From the IMG/VR virus record IMGVR_UViG_2579778802_000007, positions 1 to 31,026 of that record: a DNA stretch of 31,026 nucleotides, one strand, 5' to 3'. The position numbers were made by a program, and so were the translations under genes. This document shows, in pieces, positions 7,961-15,924 of this stretch; within the stretch, counting starts at the first letter, position 1; each line of letters begins with the position of its first letter. The notes beneath the pieces are model-generated. The model was not told the DNA's origin. It saw only the letters and a program-made list of their open reading frames with translations, and did no database searches. This stretch comes from a virus. Taxonomy: Duplodnaviria; Heunggongvirae; Uroviricota; Caudoviricetes.

Positions 7961-10900
7961 TCAGCTGATACTGATGCCTGCGGTGGCTTTCTTCATCACC
8001 ACAACCAGCAAATCGCTGATACTTGCTGTGGGATACCAGTTATTCACCAGCCATGCTGATACCGAAAACTCCAGCGTCATGTGACCGTGACCGGCAGGCA
8101 TATCAATAACGCCACTGTAAATCAGCGTATTATCCAGCGCGGTACGGTTATAAATTTCAGCACCGTTTTTCCGCACTATCAGACGGCATGAGGAGTAAAT
8201 ATCAGTATGCTCTCTCTCATGCTTAGCGCCACTGAATGCCACCGCCGGAATAACAATTTGCCGGTCAAACGGCTGATCGTCATAAACCCTGACGGTAATG
8301 GTCCCTGATGGCCACCGCTCCGGTGCACGGGAGTCCCGGGGGAAAGCTTTGCCCACTGTTTTAACGAGATCGCCTTCAATCTGGTTCGCGGACAGTTTTC
8401 CCAGAACCCGACAGTTCTCGTTAATCGTGACGTTGTTGAGCGTCCCGGAATTCGCATTCACGTTACCGCTGATATCAGCATTTCTTGCGGTCAGCCTGCC
8501 CTCCGGCGTCAGGGAAAACGTCGGGGGATTGCCGGACGAGGTGATACTCACCGCAAACAGCCGCTTCAGGAACACATCGTTCATGAACAACTGATTCCCC
8601 TGCGCCACAAATAACGGCGTGGTGTTGCCGTCCTCCGGGTTAATCATCGCAATACGGTCAGCCAGCAGCAGTATGTTGCTCAGGGGCTGGCCATCAGTAT
8701 CCTCAATCCCCGCTCCAATACCGGCAACATAGGGTATGCCATTTTTTGTTTTCTGTACCTTCAGCATGTAAAGTGCAGCAAGGTCATCATTTGTGTCCTT
8801 CTGCACGCGCTGTATCTGCTGTATGGTGGCGCTCTGGTCCTCCAGCGTTTTACTGACCGTCTGTGTGATTTCATTGCGGGTTTCTGTGATGGTGGTCTGC
8901 ATTTCCGCCATCTCGTCCTTCAGCTGACTGTTGTCAATCTCTGCCCACAGCGCCTCTGCCAGATGCAGTTTTCCTATCTTTTCCCGGAAAAGTTCCAGAT
9001 AGCCCGCAGCGTCATTGCTCGCCCGTCCACTGGCTTCCACAAAAGCAGATTTACCCACCAGGTTGACGCTGCGCACATAAAACCAGAAATCCTTTCCGGG
9101 CTTAATGTGCGGACCGGAGACACTCCACTGACTGCCGGTCCCCAGATAACGGGCAGAGGTTTCCACCTGTGCGGCGTCTGCAATTTTTGCCTCCGAAAAC
9201 CAGAACTCAAACTGCACCGTCGGGTCATAAATGGTCAGTTTCGGGACTGCCGTTATCTGAAAATACCCCGGCGTCAGTTCAACACCGGCAGGCGCTGCCG
9301 GTGCGTTAATCCGGAACGTGGTGGTGGCGGGTTCGCCCTGCTGGCCATAGCTGTTAATCGCCCTGACCGTCAGGGTGTATTCCCCGAGAGGCAGGCCACT
9401 GAAACGGTGCTCCGTATCGGCAGTGATGGCAGTGGTCAGCAGGCGGCTGTTCTCACCGCTTCCACTGGTCAGGCGCAGACTGAAGCGCACGCCCTTCACC
9501 ACCCGCGGCGTGTCCCATTTCGCCAGCGCCAGATACTGGCCGTCAGCCGCGCTCACCTCCACCGTGAGGTGCTGCACTGCCGGAGGAATGACGCTGTTCA
9601 GGGTGCCTGACTGCGGCTCAAAGCGGGCTCCGTTATCCACAATGGCTTCTTTTTCCGGTACGTGCTGCACCGCCGTGATGGCAAAGGTGCCGTCCGTGTT
9701 TTCCCGGATGGAGACACAGCGGAACAGGCGACGGCTCAGTGACGGCAGGGAGAGTCCCCACACCCCGTATGTCTCCACACCATCAGGCAGGGTACTGACC
9801 TGTATCCGGTCCGGCGCGGGGTGTGCGGTGATGTCCACACTCACCGGCTTACCGCTGCCGTTAATCAGGTTCACCGCCGATGTACCTGTCTCCGGCAGGG
9901 TAACCTCACGGTCCAGCGTCAGGGTGCGGGTGGCAGCATCAATGGACAGGACACGTCCGCCGGTCAGGGTCCCGGCATAGTCATTATCACAGATTTCAAT
10001 AATGTCACCGGGTGTGTGCCGCAGCCCCTGAGACCCGAGTGTGAAATCAACCGTCTGCGTTTCCAGCAGTTCGGTCTTTATCACCCACAGCCCGGCACGG
10101 TGGGCCTGACCGCGGCTGGTACAGCCGAACGCGTCCATCTTCAGCAGGTTGCGTCCGTAGCGCAGTATGGCTTCCGGGTCTTCCACCAGTTCCGTGGAGG
10201 TCTGCCAGCCGTTCTGCGGGTCGGTGTAATTCACCTCCACCGCCGTGTGCCGGTCCTTCAGGGCACTGAAGCTGTAGCGGAACCCCACGCCGTTATCATC
10301 CACCACCACATCGCTGTTGGTGTACGGCCACACCACATCCGACGGGCGGTCCTGAACGAACGTCAGCGTCTGGCCGTTCCATACCGGCATACAGCGCATC
10401 GCCGAGCAGAAATCACTGAGAACGTCCCACGCCTTACGCTGTTGTGCCAGGTACGCATTAAAGGTCATCCGCGGCTCTGTGCCCCCGAAACCATCCGGGA
10501 CCGTCTGGTCGCAGTACTGCCCGATGGCATACAGCGCCCACTTGTCCACATCCGCCGCCCCCAGGCGTTTTCCCATCCCGTAGCGCGGGTGAGTCAGCAT
10601 GTCCCACAGACACCAGGCCGGGTTGTTGCTGTATGCCGGTTTCAGACTGCCGTCCCAGATACCGCTGTACGTGCGTTTTTCCGGGTCATAGTTTGACGGC
10701 ACCTGGATGATGCGACCGCGGATATGGTAGTTCACCGTCATCTGCTGGCCGCCGAACTGCTCCGCATCCACCTGCAGCCCCACAATGGCCGTGTTCGGGT
10801 AGCACTGTTTCACATCGATGATTTCGGTGTATGACGACCAGAGCGTCTTATTCAGCAGCTGGTCCGTGGTGCTGTCCGCCGTCTCCCTGACCATCCGGAT

Positions 10901-11434
10901 GTTAAAGGGCCGGGGCGGCAGATTATCCAGAATCACCGACGCCAGGAACTGCGAGGTGGTCTTGCCGTTAATGGTGACATCCTTTTCCGTCATCCATTTA
11001 CCACCACGCTCAAGCTGAATCAGCAGGCGGACAGACGTCGGGTTACGGTCACCCTTTGAGGTGGTCTCCACCAGTGACTGCACCCCGAAGGTCACCCGCA
11101 GGCGGTCAATGTTCGCGGACGTAATGGTGCGCGTCACCGGCTTTGCCTTCGTCACTTCCACGCCTGGTCCGGTTTCAGCTCCGGAGGACTCAAAGCCTTC
11201 CGGTGGTGTCTGCTCCTGCTCCCCGGCGCGCCAGACCGCCGTCACACCGTGTATCACGGGATTACCGTCCGTGTCCGTCAGCGGGGTTTTGTTCACCAGG
11301 ATACTCTGCAGTCCCTTCACCGGACCTTCTATCGGTCCCTCACCAATCGCATCAATCACGCTCATCATCTGCGTGGATTTGAGATTATCCTTCGCCTCAC
11401 GAGGTGTGTGCGCCTTGCCGCCACCTTTACCCAT
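7961..11434 (-). CDS. J: Tail tip / host specificity protein J
   Basis: Collinear similarity to lambda gpJ from '[22 protein letters not shown]' through the C-terminal receptor-binding region. Confidence 0.97.
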
Positions 11435-11569
11435 GATAACTCCTGTTAATTGATATGATCAATCGAAGCAATAGTCACATTCAATAACTATTGCGCGATA
11501 TCATCAGAACGCTGTTTGTACTCCTGCAGTCAGTAAACTCAGTCTGTTAAAATAATTAATGAGGGTTTT

Positions 11570-12097
11570 ATGAACCGTAAAAGTCTTGCTGCTATTGCAA
11601 TGGTGCTGGCAACATCATGTGGATATGCCGCCACAATAAAAGTCCCCATGAACCTTGTTAATGCCGATGGTAAAGAGGTGAGCGCCGGAACAATAACTAT
11701 CCAGGAGACCAGCTATGGTCTCCTGTTCACACCAGATCTGCACTCTTTACCTCAGGGCATTCATGGATTTCATGTGCACGAAAAGGGAAGTTGCGCGCCG
11801 GCTCTGAAAGATGGAGTATCTGTTGCGGCATTAGCAGCTGGCGGTCACTTTGACCCGAAACAGACTGGAAAACATCTTGGTCCCTGGTCTCCTGATGGTC
11901 ACCTGGGCGATCTCCCGGCTCTGTACGTGACTCATGACGGAAAAGCAAACTATCCGGTTCTCGCACCAAAACTGAAAGAATTAACAGAAATAAGCGGACG
12001 GTCTCTTATGATCCACATTGGCGGTGACAACTATCATGACCATCCAGATCCACTCGGCGGCGGCGGTGCAAGAATGGGCTGTGGTATCATCCCATAA
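11570..12097 (+). CDS. sodC: Periplasmic Cu,Zn superoxide dismutase with N-terminal signal peptide (accessory gene)
   Basis: Motifs '[10 protein letters not shown]', 'GGHFDP', 'GHLGDLP', '[12 protein letters not shown]' match bacterial SodC; hydrophobic N-terminus; RBS GAGGG. Confidence 0.92.
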
Positions 12098-12104
12098 CAA
12101 GTCT

Positions 12105-12136
12105 GGTAAGGGGAGCTGCCCCCTTACCTTTTCTCC
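12105..12136 (+). terminator. Rho-independent terminator of sodC (GGTAAGGGG-AGCTGC-CCCTTACC + TTTTCTCC)
   Basis: Perfect 9-bp stem followed by a T-run on the plus strand only. Confidence 0.7.
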
Positions 12137-12199
12137 ACCAGTCAATGAATCCGCTCTCGCCAGAAGAACAAACAGAAAAACTCTGAATATCTTCACATT

Positions 12200-12330
12200 T
12201 TCACAAAATCCCTGTGGCACTTATAATTTCTCTGCGTTAATTTTTTTGTCGTGACATAAGAATAATTCCTTACACTTAATCTTCGTAACTCTCCCGCAGT
12301 TCCTGTCCGCGATCACTGCGGGATTTTTTT
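12200..12330 (+). ncRNA. Candidate small RNA: promoter (TTCACA - 16 bp - TATAAT) followed ~95 nt later by hairpin CCCGCAGT...ACTGCGGG + T7
   Basis: Promoter-like hexamers at 12200-12205 / 12222-12227 and a plus-strand terminator at 12293-12330, with no ORF between them. Confidence 0.25.
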
Positions 12331-12337
12331 ATTCTTT

Positions 12338-13018
12338 TTACCCCTGCCGCCCGATAACCACGACCTTTCCGCCCCCGCCTTCATCACGGGTACTGATGTC
12401 CTGGGAGATTCGCCGGGAGCCAACCAGCATTTCCCCGTAAGGCACCGGCATCGGGTTCCCCTGGGCAATCATGTTATCCAGCGAGGAAAAGTACGTGTTC
12501 TGTCTGCCGTTATCCGTTACGCGGTAATCCGGTGTTTTTGCCTTCGGGGCCAGCATCTGTGCCATACCGCCCAGTATCATGCTGGCCCCCAGTGAAAACA
12601 GCATCGTGGTGGCAGAAAAACCACCGGCTGCCAGGGCTGAACCCCATAACGCCATCGAGGCACCGGCCGTGAAGAAAGAGCCCACGATGGCTGCCGCCCC
12701 CAGCACAATCTGCAGTCCGCCCTTTCCGGCTCCGGCCAGTCGCGGCACAATGTGGATGACCGTTCCCTCACCCAGCTGTTCGTGAAGACGGGCGTACACC
12801 GCCTCCGGTGCCGTGTCATCACCGGCAATACGTATCTGGTACCAGCCTTCGTTCATCTGACGGCGAAAGCCCGGCATCTGCATCGACAGGGCGCGAATGG
12901 CTTCCGCTGCCGTGTTCACATACAGGCTGAGGCGGCGGCCAAATCGTTGTAAATCCCCGTGAAGGCAGATGCGTGCCAGTGGCGGTGACGCCAGACAGAA
13001 TGCGTTCGTCGTTGCCAT
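12338..13018 (-). CDS. I: Tail assembly protein I
   Basis: Similarity to lambda gpI ('ARICLHGDLQRFGRR...QIVLGAAAIVGSFFTAG...KTPDYRVTDNGRQNTYFSSLDNM'). Confidence 0.93.
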   Translation of the reverse strand: MATTNAFCLASPPLARICLHGDLQRFGRRLSLYVNTAAEAIRALSMQMPGFRRQMNEGWYQIRIAGDDTAPEAVYARLHEQLGEGTVIHIVPRLAGAGKGGLQIVLGAAAIVGSFFTAGASMALWGSALAAGGFSATTMLFSLGASMILGGMAQMLAPKAKTPDYRVTDNGRQNTYFSSLDNMIAQGNPMPVPYGEMLVGSRRISQDISTRDEGGGGKVVVIGRQG

Positions 13019-13707: not shown

Positions 13708-14610
13708 TTAGTAGTGATGCAGTGAAGGCGGCAACTCTTTGCTCTTAAGCCTTACCCATGCGGAAAGATTCGTTGGTCCATCTGGCTCATTAATATCAAC
13801 ATCTCGTGTGTGATTGATTAAAACGTCTCTCGCCATTCCAATAACATACGAGAACTCATGGCCGTAGTTGTAGCACCTGTCAGAATAGTTCGATTGAATT
13901 TGCTTTAGCGCCGGATACAGTTCGCGGAATAATGCCTGTGAGCGGTTGGCATAATCCCATAGCCATACAAGGCTGTTTGCTTCTTTTGCGGAAAGCTCGT
14001 TGGTTTTCTTCTCTTGTTTGCCAATGAACTCACCTTCAAGCACTACCCTGTGGATGTACTCTACGGCTTGCGGTATCTGAGATGCATCAAGCTCTTCAAT
14101 ACTTTCCACATTGAAACGCTGATGAATCATTGCATAAGCTTCTGGGTACATTAGATGCTTTTTGCTGACCAGCATATTTACAGCATCACGAAGCGGAGTC
14201 CTGTCATCAACAGATGTTTTCTTACGTGCATTTTCTGCCTTTCCCTTTGTCCAGTAGTCATGCAGCACAGTAAAGCATTCTTCCTGGTACTGAATCAGTT
14301 TATCGCGGATGTCAGCACGAACTTTCTCGGGGTTGATGCTGAACAGCCATCCATTTAACTTCTTCAAAGGAAGGCAGAGTAGCTTACGAAGCTTTCCATC
14401 AGCAGCAACCATATTCATATGAATACAGTTGAACTTATCTAGTTGTTTCATAAGTTTTTGTTGCTGAGTACCCCAGCTCATTCCGAGGTTTTCAACGATT
14501 GGCTTCATCGCAACATATGCAACTCCGGCAGCCATGGCGGTGATAATTTGCTGACCGTTGAATGGTACGTAAGAGGTGTTCACTGCTTCTAAAATTGCTA
14601 TACTATTCAT
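13708..14610 (-). CDS. Antirepressor-like protein (P22 Ant N-terminal-type domain)
   Basis: N-terminus '[22 protein letters not shown]...[21 protein letters not shown]' resembles antirepressor N-terminal domains. Sits downstream of the arc-like gene, as ant does in P22 immI. Start at ATG 14610 (GGAG upstream). Confidence 0.55.
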
Positions 14611-14672
14611 GTTGGTTTTTCTCCACGGATTTACTGACAACCGAAGCCCTGACTGTTCCCGCAGTTGGGGCT

Positions 14673-14876
14673 TCAACTTTCTGCTCTATCAGTTATATCT
14701 TTCCCTTCATATACTTCACCTATATTGCTAATGCTGGCAGAACATCCAAGATGCTTGTATCTTATGATGTCCAACACGCAGTCACTACACAGCATCCGAC
14801 CTGTTTCTTTAGAGTAAATGTATGTTTGATCAGCGTCTGATTCGCTAATGCCGCAGAAACAACATTCTTTACTCAT
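14673..14876 (-). CDS. Small Cys-rich protein (67 aa; CxxC...CxxC, zinc-ribbon-like), hypothetical
   Basis: ATG overlaps the arc-like stop (ATGA); purine-rich SD upstream; 'CCFCG...CSDCV' motif. Confidence 0.4.
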
Positions 14877-15025
14877 ACCATTACCCCCTCTCTCTTCAAG
14901 CTGTCTATCAGGCGCTTGATAACCTCTGAGTTAAACGACCTGCACTCTTCCTTTGCCCTGCTACCTATAGCATCCTTTAACGACTGCGGCATCCTTACCA
15001 AAATCTTACTTATTTCTTTCTCCAT
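14873..15025 (-). CDS. arc: Arc-like ribbon-helix-helix repressor
   Basis: 'MPQSLKDAIGSRAKEECRSFNSEVIKRLIDSLKREG' resembles P22 Arc ('...VRKVAEENGRSVNSEIYQRVMESFKKEG'). Start at ATG 15025 (GGAGGG 4 nt upstream); an alternative in-frame ATG lies at 15037. Confidence 0.7.
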   Translation of the reverse strand: MEKEISKILVRMPQSLKDAIGSRAKEECRSFNSEVIKRLIDSLKREGVMV

Positions 15026-15139
15026 GTTACCCTCCATACAAACAACTCTTTTCGAATACAAAAGATAGCAAAGCGAGTATATCTAGTCAAAATTTTTTTG
15101 CATACACTTTGCTATCAAATTGAATACCAAAGGTGTGAT
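15026..15139. promoter_or_regulatory. Divergent arc/mnt control region with 10-bp perfect inverted repeat GATAGCAAAG (15064-15073) / CTTTGCTATC (15107-15116)
   Basis: Inverted repeat seen in sequence; divergent RHH genes flank it as in the P22 Pant/Pmnt region. Confidence 0.45.
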
Positions 15140-15388
15140 ATGGCAAAGGGTGTGTCAATTTCTCCAACTACGGTAAGAATCCCTGAATCTTTACGCGAGG
15201 CTCTTGCTGTCAGAGCATCAAAAAATGGTCGCTCTGTTAACTCCGAGATCGTCATGATTTTGCAAGCCGCGATTGATGAAGATAGGTCGCCAAAGTCAGT
15301 TGAGTCATTTGCTCAGCAAGAAGCAGACAAATTCAAAGAGGCGCTGCTTGAGACGCTAAAGACCATGTATGGTAAGGATGAAAAATAA
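15140..15388 (+). CDS. mnt: Mnt-like ribbon-helix-helix repressor (83 aa)
   Basis: 'ESLREALAVRASKNGRSVNSEIVMILQAAIDE' resembles P22 Mnt ('...KLKFRAEANGRSMNSELLQIVQDAL'). Same length as P22 Mnt; SD AAGGTG upstream. Confidence 0.7.
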   Translation: MAKGVSISPTTVRIPESLREALAVRASKNGRSVNSEIVMILQAAIDEDRSPKSVESFAQQEADKFKEALLETLKTMYGKDEK

Positions 15389-15924
15389 TGCTGCACACAA
15401 TTCATTTCTTATGCCCCGTTAACACTGCCACTGTTGGGCAACTTCAGAACCACTGTCTCACCGCATTATCTCAAGGCGCAACTGAATTAAATATCCATAT
15501 ATCAAGTCAGGGAGGGGAAACTGCCGCTGGCTTTACTGCGTATAACTTTCTTAAGTCACTCCCTGTTACCGTTAGAACTCACAACATAAGCAATGTTGAA
15601 TCCATAGCTAATATCGTTTTCCTGGCTGGCTCAGAACGTTTCGCAAACCCATTATCAAGATTCCTGTTACATCCTCTATTATGGTGCTTTGCCTCCCCAG
15701 CCGCCGACCATGCCAGATTGAGAGAGTACGGGAAATGCCTCGATAACGATCTTGATCGCTTCGTTGAGACGTTCAATATCGACATCGGAACCCATATTAG
15801 GTGGGCATCCCTGATAGCAGACTCGACCATTTTGGATGCTAACAAGGCTCTTGAGCATGGCATAATTAATTCCATAAAAACTGCAAGGCTGGCATCCAAT
15901 CAGGCAAACTGGTGGGTTGTTTGA
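15388..15924 (+). CDS. ClpP/crotonase-fold serine peptidase-like protein (S14/S49-like), translationally coupled to mnt (TAATG overlap)
   Basis: 'ELNIHISSQGGETAAGFTAYNFLKSLPVTVRTHNISNVESIANIVFLAGSERFANPLSRFLLHP' parallels the ClpP core ('IYLYINSPGG...GQAASMGAFLL...RVMIHQP'), with candidate Ser and His at corresponding positions. Confidence 0.7.
   Translation: MLHTIHFLCPVNTATVGQLQNHCLTALSQGATELNIHISSQGGETAAGFTAYNFLKSLPVTVRTHNISNVESIANIVFLAGSERFANPLSRFLLHPLLWCFASPAADHARLREYGKCLDNDLDRFVETFNIDIGTHIRWASLIADSTILDANKALEHGIINSIKTARLASNQANWWVV

What the first reader, a model, noticed from the sequence alone, without database searches (positions are those of the whole stretch)
11435..12337. sodC accessory gene inserted antisense between tail genes I and J
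A signal-peptide Cu,Zn superoxide dismutase gene with its own plus-strand terminator sits between I and J, which are adjacent in lambda, and is transcribed against the late operon. Late transcripts must read about 0.9 kb antisense through it to reach J. Prophage-borne sodC genes are known virulence or fitness cargo in Salmonella and pathogenic E. coli prophages, but placement inside the I-J junction on the opposite strand is notable. The upstream region holds imperfect palindromes (TTGATATGATCAA; CAATAGT...ACTATTG) that could be regulator sites.
Basis: partly seen in the sequence, partly recalled or inferred. Interest (0 to 1): 0.5.

Follow-up and report, generated by a model that had tools for sequence, protein, structure and literature searches.

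The report
Known prophage sodC cargo plus sRNA

Summary
Window 11435-12337 is exactly the I-J gap of a lambdoid tail operon that runs on the minus strand. It contains an intact plus-strand sodC gene (11570-12097) with a signal peptide, every metal ligand and its own terminator (12105-12128).

The placement is not novel. The same antisense I/sodC/J layout is annotated in O157:H7 Sakai Sp10, in Stx2a phages and in Salmonella Fels-1. At least 80% of this 903-bp stretch is present in 537 of 5,426 complete E. coli genomes. The O157 homologue (80% identical protein) was shown in 2008 to be expressed in lysogens, RpoS-independent, dimeric and protective against H2O2.

The upstream palindromes exist but are no more than chance gives, and they are not conserved in the O157 allele.

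The interval also holds a second transcription unit. A near-consensus promoter (12200-12227) and a terminator (12292-12330) bracket an RNA of about 85-97 nt. It is homologous to PasB of EPEC and to EcOnc22-24 of EHEC, which are Hfq-bound sRNAs verified by northern blot and sit at this same spot. O157-type sodC cassettes have lost that promoter; this rarer allele keeps it.

Verdict: already known, low interest.

The parts
7961..11434 (-). Tail tip/host-specificity gene J, the late-operon gene downstream of the insert.
   Evidence: 1157-aa ORF. Six J-specific Pfam domains.
11435..11569 (.). 135-bp spacer. On the minus strand it carries the J ribosome-binding site (AGGAG, complement of 11442-11446). 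On the plus strand it is the sodC upstream region. No sigma-70 consensus promoter was found for sodC.
   Evidence: Sequence. The promoter scan found no plus-strand site in 11300-11569. Blocks 11487-11519 and about 11541-11580 are conserved with the O157 allele. In O157 the 299 bp upstream of sodC-F were used as the promoter fusion and were RpoS-independent (PMC2569942).
11449..11494 (.). Two inverted repeats: ATTGAT-N3-ATCAAT at 11449-11463 and GCAATAGT-N11-ACTATTGC at 11468-11494. Their significance is doubtful.
   Evidence: Not beyond chance (87 of 1,000 shuffles). Not conserved in Sakai Sp10. As RNA on the minus (late) strand they fold at -16.7 kcal/mol, z -4.1.
11570..12097 (+). sodC, a periplasmic Cu,Zn superoxide dismutase precursor of 175 aa. 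Residues 1-20 are the signal peptide, with a predicted SPase I site at A20/A21. ATSC at residues 14-17 is lipobox-like.
   Evidence: Pfam PF00080 over its full length. PDB homologues at E 4e-62. H68, H70, H93, H102, H111, D114, H149, C75, C171 and R168 are invariant against SodC-F, SodCIII and SodCI. 100% identical to RefSeq WP_001530016.1. dN/dS 0.13 against the Sp10 allele. The O157 homologue is processed by both SPase I (20/21) and SPase II (AASC) (PMC2569942).
12105..12136 (+). The sodC gene's own intrinsic terminator: GGTAAGGGG-AGCTGC-CCCCTTACC followed by TTTTCTCC.
   Evidence: Fold of -17 kcal/mol. The hairpin is conserved after sodC in the O157 and Stx2a alleles.
12200..12227 (+). Promoter of the sRNA gene: TTCACA, 16 nt, TATAAT (11 of 12 matches to consensus).
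   Evidence: The TTCACATT box plus a -10-like hexamer is present in 86 of 87 sodC-less I-J spacers, absent from 30 O157-type sodC spacers, and present in all 3 window-type spacers (sequences).
12234..12330 (+). PasB/EcOnc22-family small RNA gene, predicted length about 83-97 nt. The terminator stem is 12292-12323 and the U tract 12324-12330. The 3' end lies 7 nt from the I stop codon.
   Evidence: Aligns with PasB of E2348/69 (73% identity) and EcOnc22 of Sakai Sp15 (72%). 20 of the 23 nt of the PasB northern probe's reverse complement match 12311-12330 exactly. PasB lies in the I-J spacer, antisense. EcOnc22/23/24 lie in the I-J spacers of Sp15, Sp14 and Sp11. Terminator fold -15.7 kcal/mol, z -4.2. 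No Rfam family matches.
12338..13018 (-). Tail assembly gene I, the late-operon gene upstream of the insert.
   Evidence: ORF. Pfam Lambda_tail_I.

Best explanation
The I-J gap of this lambdoid prophage carries two independent plus-strand transcription units that are expressed from the prophage while the minus-strand late operon is silent.

Unit 1 is a sodC 'moron', meaning an accessory cargo gene. Its own promoter was not pinpointed and is inferred, from the O157 homologue, to lie within about 300 bp upstream. It drives a 175-aa precursor that is exported by a signal peptide. The export product is predicted to be partly soluble and partly lipid-anchored, as with SodC-F. It should mature into a Cu,Zn superoxide dismutase that removes periplasmic superoxide and so raises the lysogen's resistance to oxidative killing. 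Transcription stops at the hairpin at 12105-12128.

Unit 2 is an sRNA gene of the PasB/EcOnc22 family. It has a near-consensus sigma-70 promoter (12200-12227), a body of about 85-97 nt and an intrinsic terminator ending 7 nt from the I stop codon. By homology it should be an Hfq-bound trans-acting regulator. Its targets are unknown.

The sRNA gene is the constant resident of this gap in many E. coli lambdoid phages. Cargo such as sodC alleles, further sRNA cassettes or IS elements sits between it and J.

On induction, Q-modified late transcription has to read antisense through both units to reach J. The cassette supplies J's ribosome-binding site.

Shown here: gene integrity, homology, layout, promoter and terminator motifs, and distribution. 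Inferred: expression, enzyme activity, Hfq binding and fitness effect.
For: sodC identity and integrity:
- Full-length Pfam match and PDB homologues at E 4e-62.
- All Cu and Zn ligands, the disulfide cysteines and the catalytic Arg are invariant.
- dN/dS is 0.13 against the Sp10 allele, with dS 0.9.
- The protein is identical in other E. coli genomes.

Cargo nature:
- GC falls from about 0.60 in I and J to 0.41-0.52 across the insert.
- Lambda has only 60 bp at this position.
- The same layout is found in Sakai Sp10, Stx2a phages, another O157 strain and Fels-1.
- 537 of 5,426 complete E. coli genomes hold at least 80% of the 903 bp.

Function of the homologue: it is expressed in lysogens, RpoS-independent, dimeric, more active and more stable than chromosomal SodC, dually processed, and mutants are H2O2-sensitive (PMC2569942).

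sRNA unit:
- Promoter matching 11 of 12 positions, plus a terminator.
- Homology to PasB and EcOnc22.
- PasB is 83 nt, Hfq-dependent, verified by northern blot, has 37 RIL-seq interactions, and lies in the I-J spacer of PP6.
- EcOnc22 is about 85 nt and is destabilised in a delta-hfq strain. After a +128 nt version shift, its Hfq peak falls on the conserved core. The shift was checked against the AgvB Rfam hit and the HnrS terminator.
- In 127 loci the core always lies about 75 nt from the I stop, antisense.
- Promoter presence tracks cargo type. No Hfq peak is listed for the promoter-less Sp10 copy.
Against: No sigma-70 consensus promoter was found upstream of sodC, so its start site is unknown.

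The sodC terminator's T tract is interrupted (TTTTCTCC). Some read-through into the sRNA region is therefore possible, and the two units may not be fully independent.

No expression data exist for this allele. It is only 80% identical in protein to the characterised O157 enzyme, and the sRNA is only 72-73% identical to the characterised sRNAs, so targets cannot be transferred.

The +128 coordinate shift used to place EcOnc22 on the module was verified at 1.94 Mb and only inferred at 2.2-2.9 Mb.

The set of 127 loci was collected with a pattern taken from the sRNA core. Conservation of that core within the set is therefore by construction.
Confidence: 0.85

Rival explanations
1. There is a single transcription unit. 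The whole stretch 12098-12330 is the 3' untranslated region of sodC, the distal hairpin at 12292-12330 is the real sodC terminator, and any small RNA arises by processing of the sodC mRNA.
For: In the common O157-type cassette the sRNA body follows sodC without the promoter box. The proximal terminator has an interrupted T tract.
Against: This allele keeps a promoter matching 11 of 12 positions at 12200-12227. The same promoter sits in front of the same RNA in 86 of 87 spacers that have no sodC at all. In those spacers PasB and EcOnc22 are made as discrete RNAs of 83-85 nt. The proximal hairpin is strong (-17 kcal/mol) and is conserved between sodC alleles whose coding sequences differ at dS 0.9.
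Confidence: 0.1
2. sodC here is a decaying, non-functional remnant in a degrading prophage.
For: The neighbouring lom gene is split into two ORFs. Related prophages show truncated J and IS insertions.
Against: The ORF is intact, has a ribosome-binding site and retains every catalytic and structural residue. dN/dS is 0.13. The protein is 100% identical in independent genomes.
Confidence: 0.03
3. The upstream palindromes are operators for a redox or virulence regulator (FNR-, CRP- or PhoP-like) that controls sodC.
For: The palindromes are present. The arms TTGAT/ATCAA resemble FNR half-sites (from general knowledge of the FNR consensus TTGAT-N4-ATCAA). sodC-F is expressed anaerobically (PMC2569942).
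Against: The arms are 3 nt apart, not 4. Inverted repeats of this size occur in 9-11% of shuffles. Both are degraded in the O157 allele although adjacent sequence is identical. They lie 15-60 nt from J's start codon and fold better as RNA on the late strand (z -4.1) than on the sodC strand (z -2.1), so if they are functional they may serve the J leader instead.
Confidence: 0.1

Closest known systems
SodC-F1/SodC-F2 of E. coli O157:H7 (prophages CP-933R/CP-933V; Sakai Sp10 ECs_1989)
   Same: Same gap, same antisense orientation between I and J, same conserved proximal terminator hairpin, same ligands, and the same dual signal-peptidase-type leader. I and J flanks are 92-99% identical.
   Different: The protein is only 80% identical, with dS 0.9. 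The O157 cassette has replaced the promoter of the adjacent sRNA, whereas this allele keeps it. This allele is rare: 6 of 5,426 complete genomes at 99% identity or more.
SodCIII of Salmonella phage Fels-1 (STM0924)
   Same: Antisense between the gpI and gpJ homologues.
   Different: 61% protein identity. The gap from sodC to I is only about 50 bp, so there is no room for a PasB-type module. The upstream region is unrelated.
SodCI of Salmonella phage Gifsy-2 (STM1044)
   Same: A prophage-borne dimeric-class Cu,Zn SOD, antisense inside the tail-tip gene block.
   Different: It sits between lom/M and L, not between I and J. Protein identity is 56%. PhoPQ regulation of sodCI is known from the literature (recalled from memory). 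No PhoP box was recognised here by eye, and no formal scan was run.
PasB (EPEC E2348/69 PP6) and EcOnc22/23/24 (EHEC Sakai Sp15/Sp14/Sp11) Hfq-binding sRNAs
   Same: Same position (the 3' end is a few nt from the I stop), same antisense orientation, same promoter box and same terminator stem CCCGCAG...CTGCGGG.
   Different: Identity is 72-73%, with differences in the 5' and central part where a seed would lie. Here the sRNA is accompanied by sodC. Function is unknown for all members. There is no Rfam model.

Membership tests
Cu,Zn superoxide dismutase (SodC, Pfam PF00080) | Full-length match to the family profile above the curated cut-off | tested here: met
   110.9 bits against a cut-off of 28.9, profile positions 2-133 of 133. 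E 4e-62 to solved bacterial SodC structures.
Cu,Zn superoxide dismutase (SodC, Pfam PF00080) | Four Cu-binding His (one of them bridging), three further Zn ligands (2 His and 1 Asp), the disulfide Cys pair and the catalytic Arg | tested here: met
   H68, H70, H93, H149; H102, H111, D114; C75/C171; R168. All are invariant in the alignment with SodC-F, SodCIII and SodCI. Assigning roles to these positions rests on established knowledge of the family.
Cu,Zn superoxide dismutase (SodC, Pfam PF00080) | N-terminal export signal (periplasmic enzyme) | tested here: met
   The leader [21 protein letters not shown] aligns with the O157 SodC-F leader, whose SPase I (20/21) and SPase II (lipobox) processing was shown experimentally (PMC2569942). 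No signal-peptide predictor was available.
Cu,Zn superoxide dismutase (SodC, Pfam PF00080) | Superoxide dismutase activity | not testable with these tools
   Requires an enzyme assay.
Prophage sodC moron in the I-J gap (SodC-F / SodCIII type) | Located between tail genes I and J, on the strand opposite the late operon | tested here: met
   Same layout.
Prophage sodC moron in the I-J gap (SodC-F / SodCIII type) | Own terminator | tested here: met
   Hairpin at 12105-12128 with a T tract, conserved in the O157 allele.
Prophage sodC moron in the I-J gap (SodC-F / SodCIII type) | Own promoter active in the lysogen | tested here: inconclusive
   No consensus promoter was found. The upstream sequence is partly conserved with the O157 fragment used as a promoter fusion.
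PasB/EcOnc22 sRNA family | Encoded in the I-J spacer next to the I stop codon, antisense to the late genes | tested here: met
PasB/EcOnc22 sRNA family | Sequence homology to the experimentally defined RNAs, with a promoter and an intrinsic terminator | tested here: met
   73% identity to PasB and 72% to EcOnc22. The probe region matches. Promoter 11 of 12 and terminator z -4.2.
PasB/EcOnc22 sRNA family | Expressed, Hfq-bound RNA of about 83-85 nt | not testable with these tools
   Shown only for homologues.
FNR/CRP-type operator | TTGAT-N4-ATCAA spacing | tested here: not met
   The arms at 11449-11463 are separated by 3 nt. The repeat is not beyond chance and is not conserved.
HnrS, AgvB and AsxR prophage sRNAs | Position and sequence | tested here: not met
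   HnrS (EcOnc10-12) maps between the lysis and terminase genes. AgvB maps downstream of Q. There is no Rfam hit to AgvB or AsxR in the window.

The most novel reading that the evidence does not exclude
The I-J gap of E. coli lambdoid phages may be a dedicated modular site. A PasB-type sRNA cassette is anchored next to I, and further cassettes are stacked between it and J. These include one or two additional sRNA genes with the same promoter box but different bodies, either of two deeply diverged sodC alleles, or IS elements. In this allele sodC and an active PasB-type sRNA would be co-carried and possibly coupled in function. For example, the sRNA could tune envelope or oxidative-stress targets, or both units could modulate late read-through into J by convergent transcription. 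As far as the papers read here show, neither the stacked-cassette architecture nor the gain or loss of the sRNA promoter with different sodC alleles has been described.
Probability: 0.2. Interest if true: 0.45.

Novelty: already known. Interest (0 to 1): 0.15.

Why it matters
As stated, the finding restates a known fact. Lambdoid prophages of pathogenic E. coli and Salmonella carry a periplasmic Cu,Zn SOD as lysogenic-conversion cargo inside the tail gene block, where it helps the host survive oxidative attack.

What this check adds is an annotation point. The I-J gap holds two genes, not one. The second, a PasB/EcOnc22-type sRNA, is unannotated in the RefSeq records looked at here and has no Rfam model. 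It appears to be the conserved resident of the site. Different sodC cassettes either keep or destroy its promoter, which gives a natural on/off comparison for anyone studying that sRNA.

Tried and rejected
1. Rfam scans of the whole window at gathering thresholds and of the gap at E up to 5 found no family for the sRNA-like module. The only hit was a spurious sub-threshold MicX match.

2. I tested whether the module is HnrS (EcOnc10-12), AgvB or AsxR. It is not; those map elsewhere in Sakai prophages.

3. Taken at face value, the coordinates in Tree 2014 put EcOnc22 about 130 nt away from the module. This was resolved as a +128 nt shift between Sakai genome versions, using the AgvB Rfam hit and the HnrS terminator.

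4. PasA, PasC and PasD were considered and rejected because they sit in the Q/lysis region. PasB fits.

5. Searching by eye for a sodC promoter gave no candidate conserved between alleles. The extended -10 TGTTAAAAT at 11546-11554 is not conserved in Sp10. TATCAT at 11499-11504 is conserved but lacks a -35 element. Nothing is claimed from this.

6. An FNR-box reading of the palindrome was rejected on spacing, chance level and lack of conservation.

It said nothing about the phage context.

8. A first regular-expression classification of promoters was too strict and was replaced (then). One script timed out and one failed on a file name; both were rerun.

9. Structure prediction and the large protein searches were not used, because sequence-level evidence was already decisive.

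Full report
**1. What is there**

The window is the late region of a lambdoid prophage, with the late operon on the minus strand. It contains terminase, capsid and tape-measure genes, then L, K, I and J, then a tail fibre gene and its assembly gene. The finding's interval, 11435-12337, is exactly the gap between the J start codon (11434) and the I stop codon (12338). In lambda this gap is 60 bp; here it is 903 bp. GC content drops from about 0.60 in I and J to 0.41-0.52 across the gap, as expected for inserted cargo.

**2. The sodC gene**

The plus-strand ORF at 11570-12097 encodes 175 aa.
- It matches Pfam Sod_Cu end to end (E 8e-32).
- It matches solved bacterial Cu,Zn SODs, including Salmonella SodCI and E. 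coli SodC, at E values down to 4e-62.
- In an alignment with O157 SodC-F, Fels-1 SodCIII and Gifsy-2 SodCI, the histidines and aspartate at the metal sites are invariant (H68, H70, H93, H149; H102, H111, D114). So are the disulfide cysteines C75 and C171 and Arg168.
- The leader, [21 protein letters not shown], has the same form as the SodC-F leader. That leader is cut both by signal peptidase I at residues 20/21 and, in part, by signal peptidase II at a lipobox (PMC2569942).
- The protein is 100% identical to RefSeq WP_001530016.1 in other E. coli genomes. It is 80% identical to Sakai SodC-F, 61% to SodCIII and 56% to SodCI.
- Against the Sakai allele dN/dS is 0.13 with dS 0.9. This means purifying selection on an old, diverged allele, even though the flanking I and J genes are 92-99% identical between the two phage types.
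- A hairpin with a T tract directly follows the stop codon at 12105-12128 (-17 kcal/mol). It is conserved after sodC in the O157 and Stx2a alleles.

**3. Is the placement unusual? No.**

- In O157:H7 Sakai prophage Sp10 the annotated order is I (ECs_1987), sodC antisense (ECs_1989), then J (ECs_1990).
- The same order is annotated in Stx2a phage Stx2_EH2201, in another O157:H7 strain and in Salmonella phage Fels-1.
- Gifsy-2 sodCI is also antisense inside the tail-tip block, between lom/M and L.
- At least 80% of the 903 bp is present in 537 of 5,426 complete E. coli genomes. Six of them carry this particular allele at 99% identity or more.
- D'Orazio et al. 2008 (PMC2569942) reported the following for the prophage genes sodC-F1 and sodC-F2. 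They are expressed in lysogens, including in log phase and under anaerobiosis. They are not RpoS-dependent. They increase relative to chromosomal SodC in intracellular bacteria. They encode dimeric, more active and more stable enzymes. Their deletion lowers survival in H2O2.

**4. The upstream region**

Both palindromes exist. Inverted repeats of that size appear in 9-11% of dinucleotide-preserving shuffles of the same 135 bp. Both are degraded in the O157 allele, although a neighbouring block of 32 nt is identical. The TTGAT/ATCAA arms are 3 nt apart, whereas an FNR box has 4 (general knowledge).

The consensus scan finds no sigma-70 promoter for sodC, and I could not identify one that is conserved between alleles. 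The start site therefore remains unknown.

The repeats lie 15-60 nt upstream of J's start codon. They fold more stably as RNA on the late strand (z -4.1) than on the sodC strand (z -2.1). If they do anything, it may concern the J leader, but this is speculation.

**5. A second gene in the interval**

Between the sodC terminator and the I stop codon there is a near-consensus promoter: TTCACA, 16 nt, TATAAT at 12200-12227, matching 11 of 12 positions. About 70 nt further on is a strong terminator, with its stem at 12292-12323 and U7 at 12324-12330 (z -4.2).

- This 155-bp segment is about 93% identical in 30 or more Stx1a and Stx2c phages that have no sodC.
- It corresponds to PasB of EPEC E2348/69. 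PasB is an 83-nt, Hfq-dependent sRNA verified by northern blot, with 37 RIL-seq interactions (PMC8550237). Its published coordinates fall in the I-J spacer of prophage PP6, antisense, ending 6 nt from the I stop. Of the 23 nt of the PasB probe's reverse complement, 20 match window 12311-12330 exactly.
- It also corresponds to EcOnc22/23/24 of EHEC Sakai. These are about 85 nt and are destabilised without Hfq (Tree et al. 2014, Table S2). They lie in the I-J spacers of Sp15, Sp14 and Sp11.
- The table's coordinates are for the older genome version. A +128 nt shift is supported by the AgvB Rfam hit and the HnrS terminator. With that shift, the Hfq peak falls on the conserved core just before the terminator.
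- Identity of the window RNA to PasB is 73% and to EcOnc22 72%.
- Rfam has no model for it.
- It is not HnrS, AgvB or AsxR, which map elsewhere.

**6. Architecture of the site**

I examined 127 loci that contain the sRNA core. They were collected with a pattern, so conservation of the core within the set is by construction.
- The core always lies about 75 nt from the I stop, antisense.
- The distance to J varies in steps: about 165, 284, 355, 645, 777, 826 and 1,546 nt.
- The longer gaps contain one or two extra promoter-RNA-terminator cassettes with the same TTCACATT box but different bodies (L015, L037, L082), an IS3-family element (L024), an IS66-family element (L115), or sodC.
- Of 87 gaps without sodC, 86 keep the promoter box and a -10-like hexamer.
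- The 30 O157-type sodC gaps lack both, because the cassette junction has replaced them.
- The three window-type sodC gaps (this window, FDAARGOS_1283, TOE17) keep them.
- In line with this, Tree et al. list no Hfq peak for the Sp10 sodC-I spacer.
- The plus-strand terminator at the end of the interval therefore belongs to the sRNA gene, not to sodC.

**7. Mechanism**

The best-supported picture has two lysogen-expressed units facing the silent late operon.
- sodC gives a periplasmic, possibly partly membrane-anchored, Cu,Zn SOD that protects against exogenous or periplasmic superoxide. This is inferred from the characterised homologue.
- The PasB-type RNA is predicted to be an Hfq-dependent regulator with unknown targets.
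- On induction, anti-terminated late transcription crosses both units to reach J, whose ribosome-binding site lies at the edge of the cassette.
- The main rival is a single sodC unit with a long 3' untranslated region. It is unlikely for this allele because of the intact promoter. Some read-through of the proximal terminator cannot be excluded.

**8. Verdict**

The added points have modest value. They are the unannotated PasB/EcOnc22-type sRNA gene inside the interval, its promoter being kept or lost depending on the sodC allele, and the stacked cassettes in the I-J gap.

Noticed in passing
window 13708-15924: A P22 immI-like module is inserted between tail genes K and L. It comprises an antirepressor (P22_AR_N/C, 13708-14676, minus strand), a sar antisense RNA (Rfam RF00262, 95.6 bits, 14611-14678, plus strand) over the ant start, a 67-aa ORF, two Arc/Mnt-like ribbon-helix-helix genes (14873-15061 minus, 15098-15388 plus) and a ClpP-like protease gene (15388-15924, plus). 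A similar module is annotated in E. coli TOE17. It is absent from FDAARGOS_1283.
   Followed up: partly
L082, L015, L037 (I-J spacers of IMG/VR contigs): Some I-J gaps contain two or three tandem promoter-RNA-terminator cassettes. They share the box TTCTGAAnTTCTTCACATT but have different RNA bodies and terminators, which looks like a small array of sRNA genes.
   Followed up: partly
L024 and L115 (I-J spacers): An IS3-family and an IS66-family element are inserted in the same gap, upstream of the sRNA module.
   Followed up: no
window 7294-7893: The lom gene downstream of J is split into two minus-strand ORFs: 7564-7893 for the N-terminal part with the signal peptide, and 7294-7548 for the C-terminal part. 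It is probably a frameshifted pseudogene.
   Followed up: no
window 1277-1463 and 3575-3773: There are Rfam hits to isrK (1277-1351, plus) and C4 antisense RNA (1376-1463, plus), directly upstream of a Rha-family regulator gene (1499-2071). There is also a hit to IS009 RNA (3575-3773, minus) inside the tail fibre assembly gene. The Pas preprint reports IS009 as common near PasB.
   Followed up: no
L007 4242-4265 (Sakai Sp15) and L002 about 3964-3990: In sodC-less I-J gaps a strong terminator-like hairpin points in the late-operon direction, between the sRNA promoter and J (ACAGGCACCCTCCGGGGTGCCTGT followed by TGTTTTC). In this window it is replaced by the sodC cassette.
   Followed up: no
window 11702-11725: A 10-bp minus-strand hairpin (CAGGAGACCATAGCTGGTCTCCTG) lies inside the sodC coding sequence. 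The terminator scan flagged it as pointing in the late-transcript direction. Its T tract is weak.
   Followed up: no
L013 8683-9816 (E. coli TOE17): In the related TOE17 prophage an ompC-like porin gene is annotated between tail genes L and M. This is another cargo insertion within the tail-tip block.
   Followed up: no
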